Below are positions 30,695 through 58,629 of a stretch of 64,000 nt of DNA, in pieces. The notes beneath the pieces are model-generated. The model did not search any database. It saw only the letters and a program-made list of their open reading frames with translations, and was not told where the DNA came from. The first letter of the stretch is position 1, and each line of letters opens with the position of its first letter. Source of the DNA: Candidatus Dormibacteria bacterium. Its GTDB lineage: Bacteria; Chloroflexota; Dormibacteria; Aeolococcales; Bog-877. Location of the stretch: positions 57,503-121,502 of the forward strand of contig JBJKSO010000087.1 in NCBI GenBank assembly GCA_046703825.1, in the 5' to 3' direction. Made by a program: the position numbers and the translations under genes.

Positions 30695-31700
30695 CCAGGT
30701 AGGACATCTCCACCTTGCGGCCCGAGGCCGCACCCTGCTGGGAGCGCAGCTCTGAGTAGCGGTCGTCCCGAGCGGCCCAGATGGCACGGATCGCCTCGGT
30801 CAGCGCCCGTCCATTGCCTCCGCCGCGGAGTACCGACCTTAGGTCGTGGCCGCCAGTGGAGAAAAGGCAGGTGTGGAGCTGCCCTTCAGCGGTCAGCCGC
30901 AGCCGGGTGCAGCCTCCACAGAAGGGGCGGGAGACCGAGGCGATCACACCCAGCTCTCCACCACCATCGAGGTAGCGGTAGCGGTTGGCCACCTCGCCGG
31001 GATATCCAGGTGCCACCGCTTCCAGCGGCCACTCCTCGGCGATGAGCTGCACGACGGCGGCGGCGGGAAGCACCTCCTCCATCCGCCAACCGTGGGTCTC
31101 TCCCACGTCCATGTACTCGATGAGCCGGAGAACATGACCCTCTTCGCGGGCGTAGCGCGCCAGATCGACTATGCCTTGGTCGTTGAGTCCCTTGCGGACC
31201 ACGGCGTTGAGTTTGATTGGCCCGAGGCCAGCCTGCTTGGCTGCGGCTATCCCCTGGAGCACGGAGTCGATCGGCCAGCCGACTCCGTTCATCAACTTGA
31301 AGATCTCCGGATCCAACGAATCGAGGCTCACCGAGATCCGTCCCAGCCCCGCCGCCGCCAGCTGAGCCGCGAACCGCGACAGCAGCGCGCCGTTGGTGGT
31401 CATGGCCAGGTCCTCGACGCCGCCCACGGCGGCCAAACCGGCTACCAGTGCAACCACGTCGCGCCGGAGCAGGGGCTCGCCACCCGTGAGACGGACTTTG
31501 CGCAGGCCCAGAGGAACCGCCGCGGCCACCACCTCGCAGATCTCCTCGAACGTCAGGATCTCCGACTTGGGGAGAAAGGCGTGGCCGGGCCCGAAGACCT
31601 CCAAAGGCATGCAGTAGCGGCAGCGGAAGTTGCAGCGGTCGGTGACCGACACGCGCAGATCGCGAAGCGGCCGACTCAGCCGGTCTCGAACTGCGACCAT
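30687..31700 (-). CDS. moaA: GTP 3',8-cyclase MoaA (molybdenum cofactor biosynthesis, radical SAM)
   Basis: LRVSVTDRCNFRCRYCMP, an LTGGEPLLR glycine-rich region, and a C-terminal CGGCTRLRLTAEG second cluster. Confidence 0.92.
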   Translation of the reverse strand: MVAVRDRLSRPLRDLRVSVTDRCNFRCRYCMPLEVFGPGHAFLPKSEILTFEEICEVVAAAVPLGLRKVRLTGGEPLLRRDVVALVAGLAAVGGVEDLAMTTNGALLSRFAAQLAAAGLGRISVSLDSLDPEIFKLMNGVGWPIDSVLQGIAAAKQAGLGPIKLNAVVRKGLNDQGIVDLARYAREEGHVLRLIEYMDVGETHGWRMEEVLPAAAVVQLIAEEWPLEAVAPGYPGEVANRYRYLDGGGELGVIASVSRPFCGGCTRLRLTAEGQLHTCLFSTGGHDLRSVLRGGGNGRALTEAIRAIWAARDDRYSELRSQQGAASGRKVEMSYLGG

Positions 31701-31743: not shown

Positions 31744-32748
31744 TCAGTGGGCCAGCGCCGCCCGCACAGACTCCTTCATCGATCCCATGGTGGACATGAC
31801 CGCCGTCGGCTCGTAGCCGCAGTGCGCCATGCAGTTCTCGCACTTGGGGTTGCGTCCCCGCCCGTAGCTGTCCCAGTCAGTCGTGTCCAGCAGCTCCTTG
31901 TACGACCCGACGTAGCCATCCGAAAGCAGGTAGCAAGGCCGCTGCCAGCCGAAGACCGAGTAGCAGGGAATCCCCCAGGCGGTGCAGGCGAAGTCGACCT
32001 TGCCCTCGAGGAAATCGAGGAACAAAGGCGAGTGGTTGAGGCGCCACTTCTCGCGCCGTCCATCGCTGAAGGCGTCGCGGAAGATCTGGCGGGTGCGCTC
32101 CACCCCCATGAAGTGTTCCTGGTCAGGGGCCTTCTCGTAGGCGTAGGCAGGCGAGATCTGCATGTTGTCAACTTGCAAGTCGTCGTTGAGATAGTCGAGC
32201 ACGTCCCGAACCGACTTGGCATCGTCTTGGGTGAAGAAGGTGGTGTTGGTGGTGACCCGGAAGCCGCGCCGCTTCGCCTCCCTGATGGCAGCAACCGCCT
32301 TGTCGAAGACCCCCTGCCGGCAGACCGACTCATCGTGACGCTCCCGCAGCCCATCCACATGCACGGACCAGGCGAAGTAGGGATGCGGCTTGAAGAGGTC
32401 GAGCTTGCGCTCCATGAGGATCGCGTTGGTGCAGAGGTAGACGAACTTCTTGCGGTCCAGCAGCGCCTGGACAATCTGATCGATCTCCTTGTGCACCAGC
32501 GGTTCGCCGCCAGCAATGGAGACCACGGGCGCACCGCACTCTTCGATGGCATCGATGCACTGCTGCACCGAGAGGCGCCGGCGCAGGATGTCATCGGGGT
32601 GCTGGATCTTGCCGCAGCCGGCGCACTCCAAGTTGCACTGGTAGAGGGGCTCCAACTGCAGCACCAGGGGAAACTTCTTGACGCCCCTGAGGCGCTGGGA
32701 CATCAGGTAGGTGCCCACCTTGATCTTCTGACGCATCGGAATGGACAT
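31744..32748 (-). CDS. hpnH: HpnH-like radical SAM protein (adenosylhopane-forming enzyme family)
   Basis: MSIPMRQKIKVGTYLMSQRLRGVKKFPLVLQLEPLYQCNLECAGCGKIQHPDDIL...VSIAGGEPLVHKE...FVYLCTNAIL. From memory, HpnH is conserved end to end. I took the start at the internal Met; the ORF extends to 32925. Confidence 0.8.
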   Translation of the reverse strand: MSIPMRQKIKVGTYLMSQRLRGVKKFPLVLQLEPLYQCNLECAGCGKIQHPDDILRRRLSVQQCIDAIEECGAPVVSIAGGEPLVHKEIDQIVQALLDRKKFVYLCTNAILMERKLDLFKPHPYFAWSVHVDGLRERHDESVCRQGVFDKAVAAIREAKRRGFRVTTNTTFFTQDDAKSVRDVLDYLNDDLQVDNMQISPAYAYEKAPDQEHFMGVERTRQIFRDAFSDGRREKWRLNHSPLFLDFLEGKVDFACTAWGIPCYSVFGWQRPCYLLSDGYVGSYKELLDTTDWDSYGRGRNPKCENCMAHCGYEPTAVMSTMGSMKESVRAALAH

Positions 32749-32787
32749 CCGCTCCTCCTGCTCGAGGTGGCTGGCGGCGGCTAACTC

Positions 32788-32822
32788 GTTTAGGACTCTA
32801 AACCTTGTAACTATCCTAAGGT
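32788..32822. promoter_or_regulatory. Stacked inverted repeats in a low-GC intergenic stretch between hpnH-like and merR-like genes; candidate MerR operator and leaderless promoter
   Basis: GTTTAG-gact-CTAAAC at 32788-32803. TTAGGA and TCCTAA at 32790-32795 and 32814-32819 with an 18 nt spacer. ACCTTG and TAAGGT at 32802-32807 and 32817-32822. TAAGGT fits a TANNNT -10 box only 5 nt upstream of the ATG at 32827. Confidence 0.45.
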
Positions 32823-32826
32823 CAAC

Positions 32827-33786
32827 ATGCAAGTGCCCAGTCCGGAGGCGACTGACGACCCAGGTCTCCTCAAGATCGGTGAGGCGGCGGCGCTCACCGG
32901 CGTGAGTGCCGGACGCATCCGCCACTACCAGCGCTTGGGACTGGTGCGGCCCAGTAGAGGCCTCACCGGCTACCGTCTCTTCACCGCCAGTGACCTCCTG
33001 CGGTTGCTCCAGATCGACTTGCTGCGCGGCGTCGGCTTGGGCCTCCCCCAGATCTCGCTCTCACTGCCGGGGCACGGCGACACCGCCTCCCTGCACGAGG
33101 CCTTGCTCCGGCACCGCGGCGCCCTGGACGGTGAGCGCCAGCGCCTGGAGACCCTGATCGCCGCAGTGGACCGGGCCCTGGCCGCCCCGGCCGCAGACCC
33201 AGCCGCGGTAGCGGCCATCCTCTCCTCCGCCCACTCCCGGCCCCGCCAGAGCCTGGGCGTATTCGGCCGTCTCACCAAACCACTTTCGGAGACCGCCTGG
33301 ACCGCCTACCAAGGGGCGCTGAGCTGGGGGGCCGATCTGCCCGTGCCCCCCATCTTTGGCCGGATGCTACTGCCAGCTCAGGTCACCGACCTTCTCGAGC
33401 AGCTCGCCGCCGCCGAAGGCTTCGACCAGCTCTTCCGTCGCCTTGCCGAGCTGGCCCGCGACATCGTTGTGCGCAGCGAGCTCCTTTCCGACCAGCCTGG
33501 GGCTGCTCGCGAGCTGGGGCGGGGCTGGATGGATCAGCTCGAGCGCCGTCCGCTGCCCGCCGACGTGCGCCAGGCGCTGGCCCGCAACATCCCGCGCATC
33601 CGCAACCTGCGCGTCCTCAACCAGGGATTCCGGCTGTGGGCCGCAACCCTGTCTCCGTTCGCCGCGGCGGTGCTGGAGGAGATTGACGCAGAGAGCCGCC
33701 GCCGTGGCCTGCTGGTGCTCGCCGTCCTGCCCAGCCAGCGACGCCCGACCCGGTCAGCGCGGCAACGAGCGCTGGCGCGCCGCTAA
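32827..33786 (+). CDS. MerR-family transcriptional regulator with a long C-terminal effector domain
   Basis: HTH LLKIGEAAALTGVSAGRIRHYQRLGLVRPSRGLTGYRLF at the N-terminus, followed by a coiled-coil-like region. It is divergent from the hpnH-like gene. Confidence 0.8.
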   Translation: MQVPSPEATDDPGLLKIGEAAALTGVSAGRIRHYQRLGLVRPSRGLTGYRLFTASDLLRLLQIDLLRGVGLGLPQISLSLPGHGDTASLHEALLRHRGALDGERQRLETLIAAVDRALAAPAADPAAVAAILSSAHSRPRQSLGVFGRLTKPLSETAWTAYQGALSWGADLPVPPIFGRMLLPAQVTDLLEQLAAAEGFDQLFRRLAELARDIVVRSELLSDQPGAARELGRGWMDQLERRPLPADVRQALARNIPRIRNLRVLNQGFRLWAATLSPFAAAVLEEIDAESRRRGLLVLAVLPSQRRPTRSARQRALARR

Positions 33787-44215: not shown

Positions 44216-46027
44216 TCAGCTAGCGGCGAGGGTCCAACTCTGTGGATAGAGGTTGAGATTCGGGTCCTGGGGCAAGGCACCCTTCAGGCGTGGGCTGATC
44301 ACCGAGACCTGATATGGATAGTTGGGCTCCCACAAGGCTGGCAATTGCAGTGCCGCGTAAGCGCCCACCGCCTGAATCGCGGAGGTCGCAGAGCTTGTAT
44401 CGGCCGTGTTGATCAACTGATCCATCTTGGCGCTGCTGTACCCGCCGGCGTTGGTACCTCCCCCTGTCGCGAACCACTGAGTACCGATTGGAAGGTACTC
44501 GGGCGAATACGTCGGAGTGGAGCCGATCTCGCCGAAGTTACCCATCTCCCATTTGCAGCCCTCCCCTCCTCCGCTGCACGGAAACAGATCCGAGAAGATT
44601 GCGCCAACTGAGTCTTGGCGCAGCGTGACACGGATGCCCGCCTTGGCCCAGGACGATTGCATGGCCTCCACCTCGGCGGTGAATGCCGCCGAACCGGTCG
44701 CAACCAACTCCGTGAAGTTCAGCTGGGCCCCTTGGGCGATCCCTGCCCCGCACTCGCCCGCTCCCGTGCCGGCCTTGCTGCAGGTATCCACCCCGTTCGG
44801 GCGTACCGACCAGCCGTGGTTCTCGAGCAGCTTCTTTGCTCCCGAGACCGAGTACGGGTATGGGTTCTGCTTACCGATCTTGGCTATGTATGGGTTGGGC
44901 GGATTGCTGGGAATGGGGCCATAAGTTGGGAAGGCAAAGCCGTGGTAGATGTCCTTGGCAATCTGTGGTTGGTTGATCAGCTTCTGCATGGCGATGCGCA
45001 TATACAGCTGCCTGAAGATCGGTCCCACCGTTGGGTTGGTGAAGTTGAGGAAGAAGGAGTTGAAGCCGAAGTCAACCCATGGCACGACTTTGTAACCGCG
45101 AGACGTGAAGTACTTCTGCTGTGACACGTCTTCGATGGGGAGGTACCCGTAATCCAGCTGACCTGAGCGCAGGGCATCGAACTCGGCGGTGTCGCTCGTA
45201 AAGGGAAGCTCTTCAAACTTGCTGAGCTTCGGCTTGTCCGGGCCGGTGTACTTCGGGTTGGGCACGTACGTGGCCGCTCCCGTCGCCGCGTCGAAAGACT
45301 GCAGAGTCCAAGACCCGTCAACCGTCTTCCACAGTGGATTGGATGCGTAGGTGGACAGGTCTTGAGATTGGCTGTTCAGAAAGCTGTAGACAGCCTGAGC
45401 ACCCGCCGGCGTGGAGTCGTAGTTCCCGACCGCACCGGAGGTGGACGTTCGGTCCCACGTCTGTTGCGGCACCGGCCAGATCTGACTCAGTTGGTTGTAA
45501 AGAATCCATTGGCGGCTGTATGGCTGGTTGAACGTCAGCGAGAACTGATAGGGGGAGCTCGCGGGAAAGCTCATTGAGACTATGTCGTCGGGAATGCTGC
45601 CGGCTGCATAGGAGTAGAAGTTGTGCTTCTCAGCGAAGAAGATGTTCATCCACAACTCCACATCGCGGTTAGTCACGGGTTGGCCGTCAGACCAGCGGAA
45701 GTCGCGCTTCAAGGTTACGGTCACGGTCTTGCCGCCGTTGGAGTAGACCGGCGGCTTGCCGACGCTCTGCTGGAAGTTGATGGTGGGGCTCAAGCCATGA
45801 CCGAACCAATACAGAGGACGCCACAAAAACGGCCAAACCTGGAACAGGTCCACGTTATTCCCAACCGAGCCGCTCGCGAAGGGAAATATGTAGTTGGGAG
45901 TGATTCCTTGGGGCAGAGCAAACGTTGCGGTGCCCCCAGACGCCCGGTGCTTGGCGAGGACCGTACCACCGCCGGCGGTAGTGAGCACGACCGCCGCCAA
46001 CAGAGCAGCAAACAACCTAGCCTTCAT
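44216..46027 (-). CDS. ABC transporter substrate-binding protein, family 5 (oligopeptide/nickel-type); orphan
   Basis: Signal peptide MKARLFAALLAAVVLTTAGGGTVLA. The 600 aa length and composition fit SBP_bac_5. No permease or ATPase genes are adjacent. Confidence 0.75.
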   Translation of the reverse strand: MKARLFAALLAAVVLTTAGGGTVLAKHRASGGTATFALPQGITPNYIFPFASGSVGNNVDLFQVWPFLWRPLYWFGHGLSPTINFQQSVGKPPVYSNGGKTVTVTLKRDFRWSDGQPVTNRDVELWMNIFFAEKHNFYSYAAGSIPDDIVSMSFPASSPYQFSLTFNQPYSRQWILYNQLSQIWPVPQQTWDRTSTSGAVGNYDSTPAGAQAVYSFLNSQSQDLSTYASNPLWKTVDGSWTLQSFDAATGAATYVPNPKYTGPDKPKLSKFEELPFTSDTAEFDALRSGQLDYGYLPIEDVSQQKYFTSRGYKVVPWVDFGFNSFFLNFTNPTVGPIFRQLYMRIAMQKLINQPQIAKDIYHGFAFPTYGPIPSNPPNPYIAKIGKQNPYPYSVSGAKKLLENHGWSVRPNGVDTCSKAGTGAGECGAGIAQGAQLNFTELVATGSAAFTAEVEAMQSSWAKAGIRVTLRQDSVGAIFSDLFPCSGGGEGCKWEMGNFGEIGSTPTYSPEYLPIGTQWFATGGGTNAGGYSSAKMDQLINTADTSSATSAIQAVGAYAALQLPALWEPNYPYQVSVISPRLKGALPQDPNLNLYPQSWTLAAS

Positions 46028-46045
46028 AGGCCGTCCCCTTCCCCC

Positions 46046-46075
46046 CCAAGTATAAACCGGGCCCGCGGGGCCCGG
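46046..46075 (-). promoter_or_regulatory. GC hairpin plus a U-rich tract 19-50 nt upstream of the substrate-binding protein (SBP) start; possible attenuator or riboswitch expression platform
   Basis: On the minus strand, CCGGGCCC-cgc-GGGCCCGG (8 bp stem, 46057-46075) is followed by TTTATACTT, and then the GGGGGGAAGGGGA RBS region. Confidence 0.3.
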
Positions 46076-46781
46076 GCTGGCACGCCGGCGGCGTGCCTGG
46101 TAGCAGCGCTGCGTATGCTAGCCGCGGAAAAGAGGAGAGTCAATCGCCCATCAGGGTGACTTCTCCAATCCAATCGGCTAAAAAAACCTATCCGAGCCGA
46201 TCCCTTGGGGGAGGGCGCCCTGCCGAGGTAGTAGGATCTCCCGACCGCCCAAGGCGCGACAGTCATCCAGGACTGCTCCGGCCTCGCTGGAGGTTGGATT
46301 TTCGGGAGGTCCCGCGTCAGGACCGTCCTTGGGCCTCACCGAGCTAGCCCACGCCCAGGCTGGCGGCGAAGACGTAGGGGTCTAGTTGGCGGGTCGGCTT
46401 GCCTACCAGGTAGTTGAAGGGATCGCCGATGCTCCCGGGGCAGCAGCGGTCCTCTCTCAGTTGGCCCGATGGCGCCACCTCGACGCGAAGCGTTTACTCG
46501 GCCGGCGGAACGAAGCTGGTCATCCACAACCGGACAACCAGCAAAGCTCGCTCCCGCCAATCCCGCCCTCCGGAACAGGGGCACGATGGCCGGAACGCTG
46601 AGACGCATTCAAATCAGCGGCTGGCGATGAGCGAGGGAAGCAAGCGGCGCCGCCCGCCCAAGTCAGCAGCGCAAACTCGCCTTGTCCAGCCCTCGTCAGT
46701 CACCACCCGAGTTTTGTGGCCGCGCTGCGTTCGGTGGAACCTGCACTCGCAGCGGCACGGCGACCCAAAGGATCGCGAGCG

Positions 46782-49658
46782 TCACGCCCCAGTCCGAAAC
46801 GCCGACCTTGAGGGCTTGACCGGGCGCATGAGGAACTCGGGGCGCCGTTGACCGCTCGGCCCGAGTTGGGGCTTGGAAAGGTTCAGCCATTGCCGGTACA
46901 CCCGCCGGCTCTCCTCTGCGTCCACGAAGACATCCCCGTACCGGTCGTCCGGGAGAGCTGGCTCTAAGCGGACCTTCTGCAGCCAGCAATGCATCCCTGA
47001 CCAAGGGTCCGGCTGAACCGGGAAGGCGAGGTTCTGGTGCACGCCAGGATCCTCCCATGAGATGCGTTGGCTGTCGGGGTCCGCTGAGCTGAATGGCCCG
47101 ATCCCGCTCCGGTACCGCAGCAGGTAGCTGGTCGGCGACGGATGACTGATATCGGCGGAGGCCGAAGACCAGCGACTGCCCTCTTGCTCGTGCAATCGCC
47201 ATCGTCCGAGATGGTGCGAAAGCGCGCAAACGCCCGGCCGAATCCCTTCCGTGAGCCAAACGGTACAGACCAAATAGCCGATGGCCGTGGTTATCCGCAC
47301 CAAGTCGCCGGTGGCCACACCGTGTCGTTCACCGTCGCTTGGAGATAGCCACAAGGGATGGCTGTAGGAGATCTCGTTGAGATACTTCGCGTTCCCAGAC
47401 CGAGTGTGAATTAGAGTGGGCAGTCGAAAGGTCGGGATGAGAACTAGTTCGCCAGCTTCCAGATCAACTCGCCGGTGCGAGACGTGGGACTCGATGTATC
47501 CAGGAGTCGCTTGGTCGCCGAAACCAAAGTCCCGCATCGTCGGCGAAAAGATCTCAAGACGTCGAGATGGTGTCAACCAGCCCACAGTGGCAATACCGTC
47601 ACCATGCAGTACTCCGACAGCGCCAGCCTCGCCCACCAGCGGTGGTGCTTCGTCGTCCGACACCGGCCGCCGCAGCACACCAAGTTCGTCGGGCTTGCAT
47701 CCAAGCAAATCCGCAGGTTCGAGCCGCCGCTCGTCCAAGCGGTAGTCGCCAGAACTCAGCTCGACGGCTCCATAGCGCCGCATATAGGCCAGCGGAGCCA
47801 TCCCTTCTGACGCAGCCCTCTCAGCCAGCCCAGGAACTTCCTCTTCAAATATCCACCGGTAGTAGTCATCTACGGTGATCTTCTCGCCCGGGCGGTAAGG
47901 CGACTCGAAGTAACGCCGTATCCCGAGTGCACCATCGGGGTCGATCCGCCAGGAAAGCTCAAACCAGAACTCGTTCTCTTCCCAGACCTCTCCCGGGTTG
48001 GCCTCTCTTGTGTCCGCAACGGGTTGGCCCGCCCTCTCCATGGCGACTCGCTGCACCGGCTGCCGGAACGAGAGCCATCGGCCGGCGTGGGTCTCGTAGG
48101 ACTGGGTATCGTGCCGCTCGGCGGAGTGTCCCATGGGAAGTACGTAGTCAGCGAACTGAGCGGTTTCGGACCACGTCGGTGTGAGTGCGACGTGACAACC
48201 GATGAGCCGCTCGTCTGCCAGCACTTCCATCCAACTAAATCCATCCGGGTTGGTCCAGACCGGGTTGTAAACACGCGTGAAGTAGACCTCTAACCTGCCA
48301 CGACCGTCTTTGAGAAAGTGCGGCAAGAGGAAAGACATCTCGTTAGTCGAGGTGGGGTACTCGCGCGGCCAGGTGAGCTCGTTCCAGTCCGATACCGGAG
48401 GAGGCGGGTTAGGCCCGTGAGGGATGAATTTGTTCCAGCCGTTTGGACTCGTACCACCTCTGGTCCCCACCGACCCGGTCAGGACCACCAAGAACCACAG
48501 GCACCGGGCGACCTGCCAGCCGCCGTAGTTTCCGGCGCAGGCAGATCTCCACACGTGCACCGCGAGTCGGTGATCGCAGTTGGCGACGAGCTCAGCGAGC
48601 CGCTCAATATCATCGACCGGCATGTTTGCTTCTTGCGCTGCAAAGTCAAACGTGTATCGAGCGTAGTCCTCCGTAAGGACGCGCAGGAAGGCGTCGAAGC
48701 TACGCACCTCATTGGGGTGCAAGGCGTCGAGGTAGGTTTCCCAGTTGACCCACCGCTTCATGAACTCTCGATCGATGCGGCCTGTCCGCAGTAGATGTGC
48801 CGCGATCGCTAACAGTATCGCCGCCTCGCTGCCCGGCCAGGGTGACAGCCAGATATCGGCCTTCGCGGCGGTGTTGGACAATCGTGGATCAATTACCGCC
48901 AGTCTGGCACCCGCCTCCCTGGCCTCCATGATCCTCTGAGCGTGAGGATTGAAGTAGTGCCCAGTCTCGAGGTGGCTGGAAAGGAGGAGAATTACTTTGG
49001 CATTGGCGTAGTCTGGTGACGGCCTGTCATAACCTCCCCAGAGCGCCAGCCCCAGTCGAGCGCCCGCAGAGCAGATGTTGGTGTGGCTGTTGTGCCCATC
49101 CACACCCCAGGCTTGGAGGACACGCTCAGCGAACCCATCCTCGCCGGGCCGGCCCACATGGTACATGACTTCCTTGTGACGGCCTTCCTGGATGGCCGTA
49201 CGGATCCGTGCACCGATGTCCTCCAACGCCGTGTCCCAGCTGACCTGCTCCCACTGACCACCACCTCGGGGTCCGACCCGGCGGAGTGGGTGGAGGATTC
49301 GCTCCGGGTCGTTCAGCTGGTTGACGGTCGCCGGGCCCTTGGCGCAATTGCGCCCCCGCGATCCCGGGTGCGCTGGGTTGCCCTCGAGCTTCCTGACGGA
49401 CAGGTCGGCCTTATCCACGTAGGCAAGAAGACCACATGCGCTCTCACAGTTGAAGCATGTGGTCGGCACCAGGGTGTAGTGGTGCTCCACTCGCCTAGGA
49501 TGCGCTTTGGCGTCCAGCTCGACGTGGTCGTCCCAGGTTTCGGGTGGGGGGAAGTTCCTGAGTTGTTCGTGACTTCGCTCCCCCGGTAGGCTGGCACCCC
49601 GCTGCGGCGCCGAGACAGGTTCGGACCCCTCGTTGCCGGACTTAGGAAAGCGGGACAT
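46782..49658 (-). CDS. Molybdopterin oxidoreductase catalytic subunit (DMSO reductase family) with an N-terminal 4Fe-4S motif; no Tat signal
   Basis: CFNCESACGLLAYVDKADLSVRKLEGNPAHPGSRGRNCAKG is the MopB N-terminal Cys cluster. The length is 958 aa. No RRxFLK twin-arginine motif is visible. Confidence 0.85.
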   Translation of the reverse strand: MSRFPKSGNEGSEPVSAPQRGASLPGERSHEQLRNFPPPETWDDHVELDAKAHPRRVEHHYTLVPTTCFNCESACGLLAYVDKADLSVRKLEGNPAHPGSRGRNCAKGPATVNQLNDPERILHPLRRVGPRGGGQWEQVSWDTALEDIGARIRTAIQEGRHKEVMYHVGRPGEDGFAERVLQAWGVDGHNSHTNICSAGARLGLALWGGYDRPSPDYANAKVILLLSSHLETGHYFNPHAQRIMEAREAGARLAVIDPRLSNTAAKADIWLSPWPGSEAAILLAIAAHLLRTGRIDREFMKRWVNWETYLDALHPNEVRSFDAFLRVLTEDYARYTFDFAAQEANMPVDDIERLAELVANCDHRLAVHVWRSACAGNYGGWQVARCLWFLVVLTGSVGTRGGTSPNGWNKFIPHGPNPPPPVSDWNELTWPREYPTSTNEMSFLLPHFLKDGRGRLEVYFTRVYNPVWTNPDGFSWMEVLADERLIGCHVALTPTWSETAQFADYVLPMGHSAERHDTQSYETHAGRWLSFRQPVQRVAMERAGQPVADTREANPGEVWEENEFWFELSWRIDPDGALGIRRYFESPYRPGEKITVDDYYRWIFEEEVPGLAERAASEGMAPLAYMRRYGAVELSSGDYRLDERRLEPADLLGCKPDELGVLRRPVSDDEAPPLVGEAGAVGVLHGDGIATVGWLTPSRRLEIFSPTMRDFGFGDQATPGYIESHVSHRRVDLEAGELVLIPTFRLPTLIHTRSGNAKYLNEISYSHPLWLSPSDGERHGVATGDLVRITTAIGYLVCTVWLTEGIRPGVCALSHHLGRWRLHEQEGSRWSSASADISHPSPTSYLLRYRSGIGPFSSADPDSQRISWEDPGVHQNLAFPVQPDPWSGMHCWLQKVRLEPALPDDRYGDVFVDAEESRRVYRQWLNLSKPQLGPSGQRRPEFLMRPVKPSRSAFRTGA

Positions 49659-51183
49659 CCTGGCCTGCTTTCACAAACGCGATTTCATAGGCCAGAAGGC
49701 CCGGCTGTACCAGCGCTCCGGCCACTGCACCCGCTGCCAATACGGTCCCCGCTAGAGCGCCAATTCCCAGCGCCATGGCAAGCGCCGGCACGGCCACTCC
49801 ACCCAGCCAGAAGAGTCTCGCGTAGGGGCCGAAAATCAAAAGTCTCGCTGCCACGGCGGCCTGTCGGCTGGGATGCTGGCCAACGTGCTCTAGAGCCAGG
49901 AAAAGCAGATGAGCCGCCGCCCCGACGACCAAGACTACTAGCAGCAGGCGGACCTGCGGACCCGTGGCGCTCGCCAGAACAGACGCCAGAAGCATCAAGC
50001 CCGCCCCCGCCACGAGCGCCTGTACCAGCAGATGCCAGAAGAACATGGGTGACTGCCACAAGTCTCGACCCTGCGCCTGGTTGAATAGCAAGGCCGAATA
50101 CCCAGCCGTCACTATCGCCACCGGCAGCACTATCCACCTGATTACGTCGAAGATAATCTGCAGTGTTCCAGCAGCCACCCCAGCCGTCAGCAGCGCTCCC
50201 ACCAAGAGCCATGCTCCGCTAAGACCTGAAAACAGAGTGAAGGCAAGCGTCCCCCACACGAGCCAGGACGTTGGATTGGGCTTGGTAAAGAGATAGACGA
50301 ACCGGTCGGGCCGCTTGAGGTCCCATAGCAGCAGACCGCCGGTCAGCACCGAGAAAAAAAGCGCTACTGAAGGGGCTGCCAGGAGCACTTCCACTCCCCT
50401 CGTCCCGTTGGCAATGATCGAGAGACATGCGACCAATAGCGCTCCTGTCGCCACGGACTTGGTCCACAGGTAGGTGGAGATCTTCCACCCCCAAGCCCTG
50501 GGATGCGCGGTGTTCAAGGTGGTCCGTGCTGCCTCCGGCGGCCGCCGCCCCCCCTCCGCCGCAAACCGCACCCTATCCGCGTCTGGTTCAGCGTAGATGT
50601 ACCGCGGCGCCGCAGGAGCTTCTATGGGATCGAGAGCTGCTTGGTCGGCTCCCACGTAGAACACGTTGGGTCGCGTGTTCTGCTCGGGAGCCCGGACAGC
50701 AGTGGGCTTGCCTGCGATGAACCGGCTGATGCCACTGCCCGGGTCGTCTAGATCACCGACCCAAATAGAGTGAGTGGGACAGACGACCACACAGGCGGGC
50801 TCGAGGTTTTGGTCCACGCGATGGGCGCAGAAGTTGCACTTCGCCGCGGTGTGCGTCTCATCGTCAATGTAGATGGCATCGTAGGGACAAGCTTGGAGGC
50901 AGCTCTTGCAGCCTATGCACCGGTCGGGGTCGAAGTCGACGATCCCGTCTTGCCGCTTGAAGAGGGAGCCAGTGGGACAGATCTGCACACAAGGCGCATC
51001 CGTGCAATGGTTGCACCGCAACACCGCGAACTCACGGCGTGTGTTGGGGAATGCACCCTTCTCCACGTACTTGACCCACGTGCGAAACTGCCCGACCGGC
51101 ACCTGATGCTCCGTCTTGCACGCCACCGTGCATGCATGACAGCCGATGCAGGTTCCTTGGTCGATGGCGAAGCCATATCTCAT
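49642..51183 (-). CDS. Fused 4Fe-4S ferredoxin-type electron-transfer subunit and NrfD/PsrC-like polytopic membrane anchor
   Basis: The N-terminal 200 aa carry four CxxCxxCxxxCP clusters (CIGCHACTVAC, CNHCTDAPCVQICP, CIGCKSCLQACP, CNFCAHRVDQNLEPACVVVCP). About 8 TM helices follow. It overlaps the catalytic-subunit gene by 17 bp. Confidence 0.8.
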   Translation of the reverse strand: MRYGFAIDQGTCIGCHACTVACKTEHQVPVGQFRTWVKYVEKGAFPNTRREFAVLRCNHCTDAPCVQICPTGSLFKRQDGIVDFDPDRCIGCKSCLQACPYDAIYIDDETHTAAKCNFCAHRVDQNLEPACVVVCPTHSIWVGDLDDPGSGISRFIAGKPTAVRAPEQNTRPNVFYVGADQAALDPIEAPAAPRYIYAEPDADRVRFAAEGGRRPPEAARTTLNTAHPRAWGWKISTYLWTKSVATGALLVACLSIIANGTRGVEVLLAAPSVALFFSVLTGGLLLWDLKRPDRFVYLFTKPNPTSWLVWGTLAFTLFSGLSGAWLLVGALLTAGVAAGTLQIIFDVIRWIVLPVAIVTAGYSALLFNQAQGRDLWQSPMFFWHLLVQALVAGAGLMLLASVLASATGPQVRLLLVVLVVGAAAHLLFLALEHVGQHPSRQAAVAARLLIFGPYARLFWLGGVAVPALAMALGIGALAGTVLAAGAVAGALVQPGLLAYEIAFVKAGQDVPLS

Positions 51184-52101: not shown

Positions 52102-52176
52102 GGCTTCTTGTTGGAGCCGACGGGGAGATTCGAACTCCCGGCCAGCGGTTTACGAAACCGCTGCTCTACCACTGAG
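52102..52176 (-). tRNA. tRNA-Thr (anticodon CGT), CCA encoded
   Basis: The reverse complement reads GCCGACGTAGCTCAGTGGTAGAGCAGCGGTTTCGTAAACCGCTGGCCGGGAGTTCGAATCTCCCCGTCGGCTCCA. It has a perfect 7 bp acceptor stem, D-stem GCTC/GAGC, an anticodon loop TTCGTAA, and a T-arm GGGAG/CTCCC. Confidence 0.9.
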
Positions 52177-52495
52177 CTACGTCGGCAGCCGTGACCGGCC
52201 CGGCTCACCGGCAGCGACCGTCTCCCAGTCTATAAAAGTCAGGCCGCTCCCCCGGCCGGCTTCTTCCGGAGCCGGCCACCTCCAGCCACAGGGGACTGCT
52301 ACCCGCTCGGCGCTGCCCAGGGTGCCTGGCCCCGAGATCTCGCCAGTGCTAAGGTGGGCCGATCGAGGGAGTTGGTAGGCCATGATGCGCTCGAGAAGGG
52401 TTCGTGCCTGAAGTTGGCGATGTGGCTCCGAGCATGAACGTGTACGAATCCCCTGCCCGGGGTGAGGCAGTCGCACGAGCTCCCTTCCCACACAG

Positions 52496-54847
<2,352 letters not shown>

Positions 54848-55000: not shown

Positions 55001-56356
55001 TCACTGGTGGTAAAGGTCTGGATGGGCGGACCGGAAAGCGCCCAGGTTGGGACGGATGGACAGCGGGTGAGCCGGCTCGGCGCCGAGCAGCTCGATAGTC
55101 TTCAACCCGTGGCCAGTGATGTATGCGACCACTGTCTCGTCACCGTGCCAGCGACCGGACCGCGCCAGCCGGCTGAGGACCGCCACCGTCACACCTCCCG
55201 CGGTCTCGGTGAAGATCCCCTCCGTTCGGGCTAGCAGATCGATCGCTGCGGAGATCTCTTCCTCGGAGGCTGCCCAAACCACTCCTCCCGTCTCTCTGGC
55301 GATGCGCAGCACGTCTCTACCATCGGAAGGATTGCCGATCGCGATCGACTTGGCAACCGTGTTGGGCTCGCGCACGGGCTCGATGTCATCCCGTCCGGCG
55401 GCCCAGGCTGCCGCCACTGGGCCACAGCCCGCCGCCTGTGCTCCGTGGAGCCGGGGCCATTTTTCTTCCGCCACCAGCCCCAAGGAGATCAGCTCACCGA
55501 TCGCCTTGCGATGCTTAACGAACTGGCAGCCGCTGCCGATGGGCACCACGATGTCATCTGGAACCCTCCAGCCCAACTGCTCCACGGTCTCGAAGGTCAG
55601 CGTCTTGCTGCCCTCGCTGTAGAAGGGCCTCAGGTTGATGTTGCAGAAGCCCCAGTCCTCGGTATCCGCCAGCTCGCTGCAGAGGCGGTTGACCTGATCG
55701 TACGTGCCACTGACCCGCACCAATCTCGGAGCAAAGGCCCTAGTTAGGGCCACCTTGTTGGCCTCGAGATCGTCTGGGATGACGACCAAGGCCTGCAATC
55801 CAGCGTGCGCCGCATACGCCGCCAGCGAGTTCGCCAGGTTCCCGGTGGAAGCGCAACCGACGATCTTGAAGCCATTGGACCGAGCCCAGGAGATGGCCAC
55901 GCTGACCACGCGGTCCTTGAAGGAGTTGGTCGGATTGAGGCTGTCGTTCTTCAGGTAAAGGTTCCGCAGCCCCAGCTGCGCGCCGAGTCGCCGGGCATGT
56001 ACCAACGGCGTCATTCCCTCCCCAAGCGTCACTGGCGGCGCTTCGTCCTCGTAAGGGAGCAGTGCCCGGTAGCGCCAGATGCTCGGCGGCCCCGACGCGA
56101 TTTGCTCTCGGCTCACAGCGGCAGCCACAGCTTGGTAGTCGTAATCGACCTCGAGCGGACCGAAGCACATCTCGCACACGTGCGTCGCGGCAGTCGGTCT
56201 CTGGTACCCACAAGCGCGGCAGCGCAGTCCGAGCACGCGGCGGCTGGACCCGGTCGCAACACGACCTTCTAGCTCAGTTGCCTCAAGCATCTTTGGGTAG
56301 CTCCAGGATCGCCCGGTAGCAATCGGTTCGGCCCCTCGATTCGACGACGCGACCAA
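55001..56356 (-). CDS. thrC: Threonine synthase (long form with N-terminal Zn-ribbon)
   Basis: N-terminal CRACG...CEMCFGPLEVDY and the PLP lysine box NPTNSFKDRVVSVAISWA. Confidence 0.88.
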   Translation of the reverse strand: MVASSNRGAEPIATGRSWSYPKMLEATELEGRVATGSSRRVLGLRCRACGYQRPTAATHVCEMCFGPLEVDYDYQAVAAAVSREQIASGPPSIWRYRALLPYEDEAPPVTLGEGMTPLVHARRLGAQLGLRNLYLKNDSLNPTNSFKDRVVSVAISWARSNGFKIVGCASTGNLANSLAAYAAHAGLQALVVIPDDLEANKVALTRAFAPRLVRVSGTYDQVNRLCSELADTEDWGFCNINLRPFYSEGSKTLTFETVEQLGWRVPDDIVVPIGSGCQFVKHRKAIGELISLGLVAEEKWPRLHGAQAAGCGPVAAAWAAGRDDIEPVREPNTVAKSIAIGNPSDGRDVLRIARETGGVVWAASEEEISAAIDLLARTEGIFTETAGGVTVAVLSRLARSGRWHGDETVVAYITGHGLKTIELLGAEPAHPLSIRPNLGAFRSAHPDLYHQ

Positions 56357-58116: not shown

Positions 58117-58629
58117 CTACTTGAGCACCAGCCACTGGCGGCCATCGATCAGCTCGCGCACCGCGTCTCGGTGACCCGAGTGCACCGCGGTCTCGGTGAC
58201 AACGTGGATCAGGATCTCGCGAAGATCTCGCAGCCGCCAACTCCCGAAGAGGTCTGCGGGCCACCAGCGCGGTTCGGCATCAATCGCGGTGCCTTCGATC
58301 ACCTGGTTGGACCGCTCGATCTCCTGGCGGTAGCGTTCGAGGACCTGGGCCGCGTCCGTGTCCTCTGCCACCTCCCAGGCGTTCGCCGGCTGATCCGATT
58401 CCGGAACCCGGCCGCCCTCCACCACCTGCCAGAACCAGAAGCGCTCGACGTCGAGGGCGAGGTGCTGCACCAGGCCCACACAGGTCCATCCCGAGGGCAG
58501 CAAGCGCCGCCTCAGCTCGCCCTCCCCCAAGCCCTCAAGGCTCCCCAGTACGTGCTCGCGCTGCCCACGCAGAGCCGCCATCAACGCGGACTTCCCCTCC
58601 GGATCGATCCCGCTGGGTGCGCCTTCCAC
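58117..58629 (-). CDS. DinB_2/DUF664-family protein (mycothiol-dependent enzyme N-terminal-like four-helix bundle)
   Basis: 170 aa with HLALDVERFWF and HSGHRDAVRELIDG, typical DinB_2 His-containing helices. Confidence 0.65.
   Translation of the reverse strand: MEGAPSGIDPEGKSALMAALRGQREHVLGSLEGLGEGELRRRLLPSGWTCVGLVQHLALDVERFWFWQVVEGGRVPESDQPANAWEVAEDTDAAQVLERYRQEIERSNQVIEGTAIDAEPRWWPADLFGSWRLRDLREILIHVVTETAVHSGHRDAVRELIDGRQWLVLK

What the first reader, a model, noticed from the sequence alone, without database searches (positions are those of the whole stretch)
46782..51183. Two-gene molybdoenzyme with its FeS subunit fused to an NrfD-like anchor and no Tat signal
Typical Psr/Ttr/Phs complexes are three proteins, with a Tat-exported catalytic subunit. 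Here the 4Fe-4S subunit (four Cys clusters) is fused in one polypeptide to an eight-helix NrfD-type anchor. The catalytic subunit lacks any twin-arginine motif, which suggests a cytoplasm-facing active site, as in Nar. The substrate is unknown. moaA lies 16 kb away. This architecture is not common and the enzyme is unlikely to be a characterised one.
Basis: partly seen in the sequence, partly recalled or inferred. Interest (0 to 1): 0.5.

Follow-up and report, generated by a model that had tools for sequence, protein, structure and literature searches.

The report
Cytoplasm-facing two-gene sulfur molybdoenzyme
The two genes encode a membrane-bound molybdenum enzyme whose iron-sulfur subunit is fused to its membrane anchor and which faces the cell interior; it belongs to a very widespread, never-characterised family whose gene neighbours in other organisms suggest it oxidises sulfite made inside the cell.

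Summary
On the minus strand, 49642-51183 encodes one 513-aa protein with four 4Fe-4S Cys motifs, a linker and an eight-helix NrfD/PsrC-type anchor. It overlaps by 17 nt with 46782-49658, a 958-aa Mo-bisPGD catalytic subunit. Neither protein has a signal peptide, and no upstream extension is possible. Lys/Arg bias puts the FeS domain in the cytoplasm, the reverse of Tat-dependent relatives.

"Not common" is wrong. At least 533 species genomes carry close relatives (56-82% identity) across more than ten bacterial phyla, and haloarchaea carry 50-53% relatives. The fusion is kept in 67 of 69 loci.

No curated family, solved structure or informative database name exists. The substrate can still be narrowed. 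Orthologues sit beside sulfur-oxidising heterodisulfide-reductase-like (sHdr) clusters, persulfide dioxygenase-rhodanese genes, dsrE-tusA, sulfide:quinone oxidoreductase (SQR), TauE and CsoR/CstR-type regulators.

My best reading is a sulfite:quinone oxidoreductase that works like SoeABC but has a fused B-C subunit. Its nearest relatives are Tat-exported enzymes with separate B and C genes in the same B-C-A order.

I could not test orthology to characterised SoeA, and the window itself holds no sulfur partner genes. Verdict: a new variant of a known kind, moderately interesting.

The parts
49642..51183 (-). Gene for the fused electron-transfer and anchor subunit ('BC', 513 aa). This is the first gene of the pair.
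   Evidence: It is a single ORF with Pfam Fer4_11 and NrfD. Orthologues of 58-80% identity have the same length of about 505-515 aa. The fusion is uninterrupted in 67 of 69 related loci.
50599..51183 (-). Four-cluster ferredoxin domain (residues 1-195). It starts at Met1 with no signal peptide.
   Evidence: It has 16 Cys in four motifs. It aligns to PsrB (2vpw_B) over residues 2-180 at 182 bits. The best NCBIfam hit, TtrB at 185 bits, is below the 416-bit cut-off.
50491..50598 (-). Arg-rich linker (residues 196-231) between the FeS domain and the first membrane helix.
   Evidence: The model gives it low pLDDT and little secondary structure apart from one short helix at 202-210. My TM-based split counts 8 Lys/Arg before TM1, which starts a little inside the NrfD domain as bounded here.
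49645..50490 (-). NrfD/PsrC-type membrane anchor (residues 232-513) with eight transmembrane helices and no haem motif. It is the presumed quinone site.
   Evidence: Pfam NrfD scores 78 bits. The AlphaFold helices are 232-259, 264-288, 307-333, 338-369, 381-404, 408-434, 455-477 and 482-509, at pLDDT around 90. Foldseek matches ActC (8k9e_C) and PsrC (2vpw_C). Lys+Arg counts are 17 inside and 1 outside.
49642..49658 (-). A 17-nt overlap between the stop codon of the BC gene (TAA, 49642-49644) and the start codon of the catalytic gene (ATG, 49656-49658). It indicates one operon and probably translational coupling.
   Evidence: This is read directly from the sequence.
46782..49658 (-). Gene for the Mo-bisPGD (MopB / DMSO-reductase superfamily) catalytic subunit (958 aa) with no Tat signal.
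   Evidence: Pfam finds Molybdop_Fe4S4, Molybdopterin and Molydop_binding. An in-frame stop lies 4 codons upstream, and there is no hydrophobic segment. None of 77 relatives has a Tat-like motif. The fold is a generic MopB fold.
49311..49472 (-). FS0 [4Fe-4S] domain of the catalytic subunit (residues 63-116; Cys68, 71, 75 and 105).
   Evidence: Pfam Molybdop_Fe4S4 covers it. The Cys positions come, and all four are invariant in 25 orthologues.
49071..49073 (-). Codon of Cys196, the inferred molybdenum ligand, in the motif HNSHTNICSAGAR.
   Evidence: It is invariant in 25 orthologues. The ligand role is inferred from its position relative to FS0, as in Cys-ligated Psr/Phs/Arr/Soe-type enzymes (table in PMC10100899).

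Best explanation
The pair encodes a membrane-bound, cytoplasm-facing complex iron-sulfur molybdoenzyme built from two polypeptides.

Proposed mechanism:
- The catalytic subunit (Mo-bisPGD with a Cys ligand, plus the FS0 cluster) oxidises sulfite to sulfate in the cytoplasm.
- Electrons pass along four [4Fe-4S] clusters in the N-terminal half of the second protein.
- They reach a quinone bound in the C-terminal half of that same protein, an eight-helix NrfD-type anchor.
- The anchor sits in the membrane upside-down compared with polysulfide reductase (Psr).

Functionally this is a SoeABC-type sulfite:quinone oxidoreductase with SoeB and SoeC fused. It would remove sulfite made inside the cell by persulfide dioxygenase or the sHdr system and feed the electrons into respiration.

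What is shown and what is inferred:
- Shown: the domain make-up, the fusion, the lack of export signals, the charge bias, the wide distribution and the sulfur-gene neighbourhoods of orthologues.
- Inferred: the Mo ligand, the quinone site, the direction of the reaction and the identity of the substrate.

The confidence of 0.5 refers to the full statement including sulfite as substrate. It is about 0.9 for the architecture and orientation alone, and about 0.75 for a role in cytoplasmic sulfur oxidation.
For: Architecture and orientation:
- There is no Tat signal or signal peptide and no possible upstream extension. None of 77 relatives has a Tat motif.
- Lys+Arg counts are 17-22 on the N-terminal side against 0-4 on the other side in four of five fused proteins. 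The fifth, T. roseum, had only seven helices detected and gave 11 against 10.
- The bias is reversed (3-5 against 6-15) in the separate NrfD subunits of Tat-dependent relatives.

Function, from the neighbourhoods of orthologues:
- Gordonia rhizosphera and Mycolicibacterium moriokaense (71-72% identity): the pair lies next to tusA-dsrE-hdrC1B1A-hyp-hdrC2B2-lplA-lbpA-radical SAM. In Mycolicibacterium, SQR, thioredoxin, persulfide dioxygenase-rhodanese, rhodanese, TauE, a CsoR-type regulator and sulfate ABC transporter genes are also present.
- Rhodococcus jostii RHA1 plasmid pRHL3 (70%): a dsrE-tusA-BC-A-mrp operon lies beside three MBL-fold genes (two tblastn-matched to PDO-rhodanese), trxA and a rhodanese.
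- Dormibacteria relative (80%): a GntR regulator and a divergent persulfide dioxygenase-rhodanese gene.
- Myxococcota (43%, also fused): persulfide dioxygenase-rhodanese plus two Sulf_transp genes.
- T. roseum: a CsoR-family regulator followed by BC and A.
- Across 80 species loci: persulfide dioxygenase in 26, TusA plus DsrE in 14 (directly upstream in most), SQR in 5, and any sulfur gene in 35. Among the 47 loci with long flanks, 22 have a sulfur gene.

Literature:
- In proteobacterial sulfur oxidisers the hdr-like cluster is always accompanied by soeABC (PMC6397845).
- Type II sHdr systems are mainly found in Chloroflexota, Actinobacteriota and Bacillota (PMC11094781), and the first two phyla carry this family.
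Against: - I could not compare the protein with an experimentally characterised SoeA. No reference sequence was reachable.
- Indirect evidence suggests classical SoeA is under about 30% identical. No full-length, Tat-less relative with separate B and C genes appears among the top 150 representatives at 50% clustering.
- The gene order is BC-A, not soeA-B-C.
- The nearest curated model is thiosulfate reductase PhsA, far below its cut-off.
- The window itself holds no sHdr, persulfide dioxygenase, TusA, DsrE, TauE, SQR or Mrp gene. For this organism the function is therefore extrapolated from orthologues of 70-84% identity.
- About half of the long-flank loci (25 of 47) show no sulfur gene within 10 kb.
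- A dsrE-tusA pair inside the operon would also fit a protein-bound sulfur substrate.
Confidence: 0.5

Rival explanations
1. The enzyme oxidises protein-bound sulfur rather than free sulfite. The substrate would be a persulfide or thiosulfonate carried on TusA or DsrE. The enzyme would then be a quinone-linked 'sulfane dehydrogenase' that replaces or complements sHdr or reverse Dsr.
For: - dsrE and tusA lie upstream of BC-A in 14 of 80 loci, immediately so in most. In RHA1 they appear to share the operon.
- Most of these loci lack sHdr genes within 10 kb.
- TusA and DsrE carry thiosulfonate and persulfide in Sulfolobales (PMC8551704).
Against: - In Gordonia and Mycolicibacterium the pair sits beside a complete sHdr-LbpA set, which is already thought to do this job.
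- Most loci, including this window and its closest relatives, have no tusA or dsrE nearby.
- From general knowledge, Mo-bisPGD enzymes of this branch are known for small-anion substrates.
Confidence: 0.15
2. It works in the reductive direction as a cytoplasmic quinol-dependent polysulfide, sulfur, thiosulfate or tetrathionate reductase. That would make it a Psr/Phs/Ttr-like enzyme turned to face inward.
For: - The best curated matches are PhsA for the catalytic subunit and TtrB and PsrB for the FeS domain.
- Some database records call the BC protein 'polysulfide reductase'.
- The related bacterial SreA/SoeA lineage was first described as a cytoplasmic sulfur reductase (PMC10100899).
Against: - All scores are far below family cut-offs: 170 against 694 and 185 against 416.
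- The hosts are largely aerobic soil lineages.
- The recurrent neighbours are O2-dependent persulfide dioxygenase, SQR and sHdr, which are oxidative sulfur enzymes that produce sulfite.
- From general knowledge, quinol-driven thiosulfate reduction is energetically uphill.
Confidence: 0.12
3. It acts on a non-sulfur substrate, for example formate (as some records annotate it) or an arsenic or selenium oxyanion. The sulfur neighbours would then reflect shared stress islands only.
For: - Some records name the orthologue 'formate dehydrogenase'.
- ArrA is the best PDB match.
- Heavy-metal P-type ATPases and CsoR- or ArsR-type regulators lie nearby in several loci.
Against: - Formate dehydrogenase models score 86-115 bits against cut-offs of 666-1400. 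ArrA scores 105 against 1600.
- No ars, arr or fdh accessory genes recur in the neighbourhoods.
- The neighbours that do recur are specifically sulfur-trafficking and sulfite-producing genes, in phyla as distant as Actinomycetota, Chloroflexota, Bacteroidota and Myxococcota.
Confidence: 0.08
4. The complex is exported after all, with the active site outside the cell, by an unrecognised signal or by hitch-hiking on another protein.
For: None from the sequence. Hitch-hiking of signal-less subunits is known for Tat substrates (general knowledge).
Against: - Neither polypeptide has a signal, so there is no carrier to hitch-hike on.
- The FeS domain is covalently joined to TM1.
- The charge bias is 17 to 1 for a cytoplasmic N-terminus, opposite to the Tat-type relatives.
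- The NarJ/TorD-type chaperone genes found with the Tat-type relatives were not seen beside the fused pair in the loci I inspected.
Confidence: 0.03

Closest known systems
SoeABC sulfite:quinone oxidoreductase (Allochromatium vinosum, Aquifex aeolicus, Ruegeria pomeroyi)
   Same: - It is a membrane-bound Mo-bisPGD enzyme with a Cys ligand, and its A and B subunits lack Tat signals.
- The peripheral subunits are placed on the cytoplasmic (N) side with an inverted NrfD-like anchor (PMC8076601, PMC10100899).
- From my own knowledge of Dahl et al. 2013, the catalytic subunit is unusually large, about 108 kDa. The protein here is 958 aa.
- It is genomically tied to cytoplasmic sulfite-producing systems: hdr-like clusters are always accompanied by soeABC (PMC6397845).
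   Different: - SoeABC has three separate genes in the order A-B-C. Here there are two genes in the order BC-A with B and C fused.
- SoeC has been reported only from Proteobacteria, a few Clostridia and Aquificae. This family occurs in Actinomycetota, Chloroflexota, Acidobacteriota, Dormibacterota, Bacteroidota, Myxococcota, haloarchaea and other groups.
- Sequence orthology is untested and probably remote.
- An Mrp/NBP35 Fe-S carrier gene often follows the pair (13 of 80 loci).
Polysulfide reductase PsrABC (Thermus thermophilus, PDB 2VPW) and thiosulfate reductase PhsABC
   Same: - The three modules are the same.
- The FeS domain scores 182 bits against PsrB (about 44% identity in the Foldseek alignment). 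The anchor has a PsrC-like fold with TM-score 0.70.
- PhsA is the best curated HMM for the catalytic subunit.
   Different: - Psr and Phs are Tat-exported and face the periplasm, with separate B and C subunits.
- The catalytic subunit here is about 200 residues longer and only about 24% identical to PhsA. It scores 170 bits against the 694-bit cut-off.
- The charge bias of the anchor is inverted.
Uncharacterised Tat-dependent B-C-A enzymes (metagenomic P0246 clade, Sulfurovum mangrovi plasmid, Azoarcus sp. KH32C plasmid)
   Same: - These are the nearest sequence relatives outside the fused clade, at 46%, 38-40% and 30-32% identity.
- The gene order is the same: FeS, then NrfD, then the catalytic subunit.
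- They share the N-terminal 'YPPFE-W' motif that precedes FS0.
   Different: - They carry a canonical twin-arginine signal.
- B and C are separate genes.
- A NarJ/TorD-type chaperone gene is present.
- Their NrfD subunits have the opposite charge bias.
- None reaches any curated family cut-off either.
Alternative complex III (ActB/ActC)
   Same: It belongs to the same superfamily of modules and provides a precedent for fusing modules: ActB joins a MopB-like domain to the FeS domain. ActC is the best structural match for the anchor.
   Different: ACIII has lost the Mo cofactor, carries haem c subunits, faces the periplasm and fuses A with B rather than B with C (general knowledge).
Respiratory nitrate reductase NarGHI
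   Same: It is a cytoplasm-facing complex iron-sulfur molybdoenzyme without Tat export.
   Different: Its anchor is a dihaem cytochrome b (NarI), not NrfD. It has an Asp ligand and a much larger NarG. Similarity here is very weak, 22 bits.

Membership tests
Complex iron-sulfur molybdoenzymes of the Psr/NrfD-anchored type (MopB + four-cluster FeS + NrfD) | MopB catalytic subunit with an N-terminal FS0 Cys motif and molybdopterin-binding domains | tested here: met
   Pfam PF04879, PF00384 and PF01568 all exceed their cut-offs. The FS0 cysteines are C68, C71, C75 and C105.
Complex iron-sulfur molybdoenzymes of the Psr/NrfD-anchored type (MopB + four-cluster FeS + NrfD) | Electron-transfer module with four [4Fe-4S] cluster motifs | tested here: met
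   There are 16 Cys in four groups. Fer4_11 scores 89 bits and PsrB scores 182 bits.
Complex iron-sulfur molybdoenzymes of the Psr/NrfD-anchored type (MopB + four-cluster FeS + NrfD) | Haem-free eight-helix NrfD/PsrC-type membrane anchor | tested here: met
   Pfam NrfD scores 78 bits. The model has eight helices. Foldseek matches PsrC and ActC.
Complex iron-sulfur molybdoenzymes of the Psr/NrfD-anchored type (MopB + four-cluster FeS + NrfD) | Tat export of the catalytic subunit and a periplasmic active site (typical of Psr, Phs, Ttr, Arr and Dms) | tested here: not met
   There is no RR motif followed by a hydrophobic region, and a stop lies 4 codons upstream of the start. None of 77 relatives has such a motif. 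The charge bias is inverted.
Complex iron-sulfur molybdoenzymes of the Psr/NrfD-anchored type (MopB + four-cluster FeS + NrfD) | Three separate polypeptides | tested here: not met
   B and C form one 513-aa ORF. The same holds in 67 of 69 related loci.
SoeABC sulfite:quinone oxidoreductase | A and B modules without export signals and a cytoplasmic orientation | tested here: met
   The definition of the feature comes from PMC8076601.
SoeABC sulfite:quinone oxidoreductase | Sequence orthology to a characterised SoeA (Alvin_2491, Aq_1234 or SPO3559) | tested here: inconclusive
   - No reference sequence was obtainable. The AlphaFold database (afdb50) library was unavailable, NCBIfam has no Soe model, and the PDB has no entry.
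- Indirectly, no full-length Tat-less relative with separate B and C genes appears among the top 150 representatives, all of which score at least 260 bits.
SoeABC sulfite:quinone oxidoreductase | Three genes, soeA-soeB-soeC | tested here: not met
   There are two genes in the order BC then A.
SoeABC sulfite:quinone oxidoreductase | Genomic association with cytoplasmic sulfite-generating systems (rDsr or sHdr) | tested here: met
   This is met for orthologues. It is not met in this window, where tblastn searches were negative.
SoeABC sulfite:quinone oxidoreductase | Sulfite-dependent quinone reduction | not testable with these tools
   This needs a biochemical assay.
Thiosulfate reductase PhsA / polysulfide reductase PsrA | Score above the NCBIfam PhsA equivalog cut-off | tested here: not met
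   The score is 170.5 bits against a 694-bit cut-off. Identity to Salmonella PhsA is about 24%.
Formate dehydrogenase (the name given in some public records) | Score above the formate dehydrogenase alpha-subunit model cut-offs | tested here: not met
   Fdh-alpha scores 115 against 666, FDH-N alpha 96 against 814, and actinobacterial FDH 87 against 1400.

The most novel reading that the evidence does not exclude
This is not a fused copy of SoeABC but a separate, experimentally untouched family of respiratory molybdoenzymes. It would have arisen from a periplasmic, Tat-exported ancestor with B-C-A gene order by three changes. These are loss of the Tat signal and its NarJ/TorD-type chaperone, inversion of the NrfD anchor in the membrane, and fusion of B to C. 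It would be the main cytoplasmic sulfite-oxidising (or sulfane-sulfur-oxidising) quinone reductase of soil Actinomycetota, Chloroflexota, Acidobacteriota, Dormibacterota and haloarchaea. That would fill the 'missing Soe' position next to type II sHdr and persulfide dioxygenase pathways.
Probability: 0.35. Interest if true: 0.65.

Novelty: new variant of a known kind. Interest (0 to 1): 0.5.

Why it matters
- Many abundant soil and sediment lineages make sulfite inside the cell through persulfide dioxygenase, sHdr or organosulfur breakdown. In the survey I read (PMC8076601), the known cytoplasmic sulfite dehydrogenase SoeABC is reported only from Proteobacteria, a few Clostridia and Aquificae.
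- If this highly conserved two-gene enzyme does that job, it adds a quinone-linked, energy-conserving step to sulfur oxidation. The lineages concerned are Actinomycetota, Chloroflexota, Acidobacteriota, Dormibacterota and haloarchaea.
- It would also correct thousands of annotations that now read 'formate dehydrogenase' or 'polysulfide reductase'.
- It offers a clean natural example of a whole respiratory complex flipped across the membrane, with Tat-dependent, unfused relatives available for comparison.
- Culturable hosts make it directly testable: Rhodococcus jostii RHA1, Gordonia, Mycolicibacterium and Thermomicrobium roseum.

Tried and rejected
Attempts to place the catalytic subunit relative to characterised SoeA all failed:
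- The AlphaFold database (afdb50) fold library was not available.
- The PDB holds no Soe structure.
- NCBIfam has no Soe model.
- Three tblastn searches of PLSDB plasmids found orthologues and unrelated MopB enzymes but no recognisable soeABC. The unrelated enzymes were PhsA, Dms, Arx-like, Nas and FdhF-like.
- Cluster look-ups returned only generic names.
- The SoeABC papers of Dahl 2013 and Boughanemi 2020 are not held.
- No usable supplementary sequences were found.

Other checks that led nowhere:
- The AlphaFold model of the catalytic subunit was mediocre (pLDDT 66) and gave only generic MopB matches.
- The NrfD domain alone has no sequence-level PDB match.
- I looked for a Moco riboswitch or other RNA upstream and found only a tRNA.
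- I looked for a remnant of the GntR or persulfide dioxygenase genes seen in the closest relatives and found none.
- I looked for an att-like repeat of the tRNA-Thr 3' end to support a genomic island and found none.

Readings considered and rejected:
- Formate dehydrogenase, rejected on model scores.
- A sequencing or annotation artefact creating the fusion, rejected because the same fusion occurs in 67 of 69 independent genomes.

The third large protein-database search was left unused because no query could be designed that would reach classical SoeA.

Full report
**1. What is there**

Two overlapping genes lie on the minus strand at the coordinates given.

The upstream gene, 49642-51183, encodes a 513-aa protein.
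- Residues 1-195 are a four-cluster ferredoxin module.
  - Pfam Fer4_11 scores 89 bits.
  - There are 16 Cys in four motifs.
  - It scores 182 bits against PsrB of Thermus polysulfide reductase.
- Residues 196-231 are an Arg-rich linker.
- Residues 232-513 are an NrfD/PsrC-type anchor.
  - Pfam NrfD scores 78 bits.
  - An AlphaFold model gives eight long helices at pLDDT around 90.
  - The best structural matches are ActC of alternative complex III and PsrC, with TM-score 0.70 for PsrC.

The downstream gene, 46782-49658, overlaps the first by 17 nt and encodes a 958-aa MopB catalytic subunit.
- It has the FS0 motif (C68, C71, C75, C105).
- It has both molybdopterin domains.
- It has an invariant Cys196 in the position expected for a Mo ligand.

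**2.

- No in-frame extension can add a twin-arginine signal.
  - A stop codon lies four codons upstream of the catalytic ATG.
  - A stop lies 34 codons upstream of the BC start, with no start codon in between.
- The only RR in the N-terminus (residues 55-56) abuts the FS0 motif. The protein has no hydrophobic segment at all.
- In 77 related genes, the whole open frame upstream of FS0 lacks a Tat-like motif. The same test detected the signals of two of three Tat-dependent controls.
- No stop splits the FeS and membrane parts. The same uninterrupted fusion is found in 67 of 69 related loci where both domains were visible. The two counted exceptions, and a third locus where only the FeS domain was matched, look like frameshifts in MAG assemblies.

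**3. Orientation**

- With no signal peptide, the FeS domain must stay in the cytoplasm, which puts TM1 in an N-in orientation.
- Lys+Arg counts agree.
  - In this protein, 17 lie on the N-terminal side and 1 on the other.
  - Three of the four other fused proteins tested give 17-22 against 0-4. The fourth, T. roseum, had only seven helices detected and gave 11 against 10.
- The stand-alone NrfD subunits of the nearest Tat-dependent relatives show the opposite bias, 3-5 against 6-15.
- The whole complex therefore appears inverted in the membrane relative to Psr. This is the arrangement proposed in the literature for SoeABC (PMC8076601).

**4. How common it is**

- The top 120 hits are all full-length: 69-84% identity for the catalytic subunit and 58-80% for the fusion. 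They come mainly from Candidatus Dormibacteria MAGs and Actinomycetota such as Pseudonocardia, Gordonia, Mycolicibacterium, Nocardioides and Saccharopolyspora.
- The best 80 loci are 56-82% identical over the whole length. They come from:
  - Actinomycetota
  - Chloroflexota (Thermomicrobiales, Anaerolineae, Ktedonobacterales)
  - Acidobacteriota
  - Gemmatimonadota
  - Myxococcota
  - Bacteroidota (Saprospiraceae, Flavilitoribacter)
  - Planctomycetota
  - Binatia
- Plasmid records add Rhodococcus jostii RHA1 pRHL3 (70%), the Thermomicrobium roseum megaplasmid (61%) and five haloarchaeal replicons (50-53%).
- The window itself is probably from a Dormibacterota MAG. I infer this from the closest hits and the 68-70% GC content.

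**5. Whether it is characterised**

I found no sign that it is.
- No NCBIfam model comes near its cut-off. PhsA scores 170 against 694, and TtrB scores 185 against 416.
- The best solved structures are ArrA (104 bits) and generic MopB folds.
- Every public name attached to orthologues is generic or mistaken. Examples are 'conserved hypothetical protein', 'molybdopterin-dependent oxidoreductase', 'formate dehydrogenase' and 'probable polysulphide reductase'.
- A 2021 survey of NrfD-like subunits lists SoeC only in Proteobacteria, a few Clostridia and Aquificae. It does not mention a fused form.

**6. What the neighbours say**

| Organism (identity to the window protein) | Genes beside the pair |
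|---|---|
| Gordonia rhizosphera, Mycolicibacterium moriokaense (71-72%) | Divergent from tusA, dsrE, hdrC1, hdrB1, hdrA, hyp, hdrC2B2, lplA, lbpA and a radical SAM gene, the sulfur-oxidising sHdr system. Mycolicibacterium also has an SQR-like gene, thioredoxin, persulfide dioxygenase-rhodanese, rhodanese, TauE, a CsoR-type regulator and a sulfate ABC transporter |
| Rhodococcus jostii RHA1 pRHL3 (70%) | Operon dsrE-tusA-BC-A-mrp, flanked by three MBL-fold genes (two tblastn-matched to PDO-rhodanese), trxA and a rhodanese |
| Closest Dormibacteria relative (80%) | GntR regulator and a divergent persulfide dioxygenase-rhodanese gene |
| Myxococcota homologue (43%, also fused) | Follows persulfide dioxygenase-rhodanese and two Sulf_transp genes |
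| T. roseum (61%) | A CsoR-family regulator directly precedes the pair |
| Natrinema | An Mrp/NBP35 Fe-S carrier gene follows the pair |

Counts over the 80 species loci:
- persulfide dioxygenase in 26
- TusA plus DsrE in 14, directly upstream in most
- Mrp/NBP35 downstream in 13, immediately so in most
- SQR in 5
- at least one sulfur gene in 35, or 22 of the 47 loci with long flanks

Persulfide dioxygenase and sHdr both release sulfite in the cytoplasm. In proteobacterial sulfur oxidisers the hdr-like cluster is always accompanied by soeABC (PMC6397845). Type II sHdr systems are concentrated in Chloroflexota, Actinobacteriota and Bacillota (PMC11094781), and the first two phyla carry this enzyme.

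**7. Most likely mechanism**

- Sulfite, produced in the cytoplasm, is oxidised to sulfate at the Mo-bisPGD site of the 958-aa subunit.
- Two electrons travel through FS0 and the four clusters of the fused protein.
- The reduced quinone is re-oxidised by the aerobic respiratory chain.
- The modules, the missing export signals, the topology signal and the genomic associations are shown.
- The Mo ligand, the quinone site, the direction of the reaction and the substrate are inferred.
- My confidence estimates are:
  - about 0.9 for the architecture and orientation
  - about 0.75 for a role in cytoplasmic sulfur oxidation
  - about 0.5 for sulfite as the substrate

**8. Relationship to known enzymes**

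A neighbour-joining tree of the sequences I could assemble gave these results.
- The fused, Tat-less proteins from ten or more phyla form one tight clade.
- Their nearest relatives are uncharacterised Tat-dependent enzymes:
  - the metagenomic P0246 clade, 46% identical
  - a Sulfurovum plasmid gene, 38-40%
  - an Azoarcus KH32C plasmid gene, 30-32%
- Where the FeS and NrfD genes are annotated, they are separate and in the same B-C-A order. All three carry a NarJ/TorD-type chaperone gene.
- P0246 and two other Tat-type representatives (P0305, P0265) share the N-terminal 'YPPFE-W' motif after their signal peptides.
- None of these relatives reaches a curated cut-off either.
- PhsA, ArxA-like and DmsA-like references are 22-24% identical to the window protein.

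The pattern suggests that loss of the Tat signal, membrane inversion and B-C fusion occurred together in one lineage.

I could not obtain any experimentally characterised SoeA sequence, so orthology to SoeABC remains untested. Among the top 150 representatives at 50% clustering (all at least 260 bits), no full-length Tat-less protein with separate B and C genes appears. The two Tat-less ones I checked are themselves fused. Classical SoeA is therefore probably no closer than about 30% identity. I file the enzyme as working like SoeABC, not as a demonstrated member of the SoeABC family.

**9. Caveats specific to this window**

- The 64-kb window holds no sHdr, persulfide dioxygenase, TusA, DsrE, SQR, TauE, GntR or Mrp homologue.
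- The immediate neighbours are an SBP_bac_5 solute-binding protein, a small ORF, a tRNA-Thr and a divergently oriented copper-type P-type ATPase.
- The pair and the SBP gene have lower GC (0.59-0.62) and lower GC3 (0.71-0.76) than the flanking genes (0.67-0.70 and 0.80-0.90). They also lie just downstream of the 3' end of the tRNA.
- This hints at acquisition by horizontal transfer, but I found no att repeat or integrase.
- moaA, 15 kb away, is real but says nothing specific about this enzyme.

**10. Verdict**

- This is an ordinary-looking but uncharacterised and very widespread variant of the Psr/Soe-type molybdoenzymes.
- The fused B-C subunit and inward orientation are its defining traits. 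A role in cytoplasmic sulfite oxidation is a well-supported, directly testable hypothesis.

Noticed in passing
window 52112-52186 (-) and 44216-51183: A tRNA-Thr(CGT) gene lies 0.9 kb upstream of the operon with its 3' end pointing at it. The segment from the SBP_bac_5 gene to the BC gene has lower GC (0.59-0.64) and GC3 (0.64-0.76) than the flanking genes (0.67-0.70 and 0.80-0.90). This could be an acquired island, but I found no att-like repeat of the tRNA end and no integrase.
   Followed up: partly
window 52496-54847 (+); L099 10586-13135; L008 23976-26237: A heavy-metal (copper-type) P-type ATPase lies next to the pair in this window. One also lies next to the pair in a 43%-identical metagenomic relative, and another about 9 kb away on Rhodococcus jostii pRHL3. 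CsoR-family 'metal-sensitive' regulators also sit by the pair in T. roseum and near it in other loci. Whether these are copper sensors or CstR-type persulfide sensors is unresolved.
   Followed up: no
L002, L005, L008, L010 and 13 of 80 genome loci (gene immediately downstream of the catalytic gene): An Mrp/NBP35 (ApbC-like) Fe-S cluster carrier gene, with a DUF59 domain in the actinobacterial examples inspected, follows the catalytic gene. It often overlaps that gene, in Actinomycetota and haloarchaea. A small DUF59 gene precedes the pair in Mycobacteriales. It may be a dedicated maturation factor that takes the place of the NarJ/TorD chaperone seen in the Tat-type relatives. It is absent from this window.
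   Followed up: partly
L100 (P0246 context), L011 (Sulfurovum mangrovi plasmid), L096 (Azoarcus sp. KH32C plasmid): The nearest relatives outside the fused clade are Tat-dependent enzymes with separate FeS and NrfD genes in B-C-A order, a NarJ/TorD chaperone and an extra 4Fe-4S protein. Beside the Azoarcus genes lie a PhnD-like binding protein, a histidine kinase and a sigma-54 regulator. None of these enzymes matches a curated family, so they are also of unknown function.
   Followed up: partly
window 13018-14421 (+), 55001-56356 (-), 58117-58629 (-): The window also encodes a cystathionine beta-synthase-like protein (PALP + CBS domains), another PLP-dependent (PALP) enzyme and a DinB/mycothiol-S-transferase-family protein. 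These hint at active thiol and sulfur amino-acid metabolism in this organism, but they are not linked to the operon.
   Followed up: no
window 46024-46266 (-): An 80-aa ORF with no Pfam match overlaps the start of the SBP_bac_5 gene by 4 nt. It is also called as a gene on an independent Logan contig identical to this region. Its function is unknown, and it is not found next to the pair in relatives.
   Followed up: no
window 28208-29518 (-), 30687-31700 (-), 31744-32925 (-): A type II NADH dehydrogenase-like gene, moaA, and a radical SAM + DUF3463 gene (my reading: HpnH-like, not tested) lie 15-18 kb from the operon.
   Followed up: partly
L032, L053, L057 (genome loci): In three MAG loci the FeS and NrfD parts lie in different reading frames with overlapping open frames. 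These are either assembly frameshifts or rare unfused variants. I did not resolve which.
   Followed up: partly
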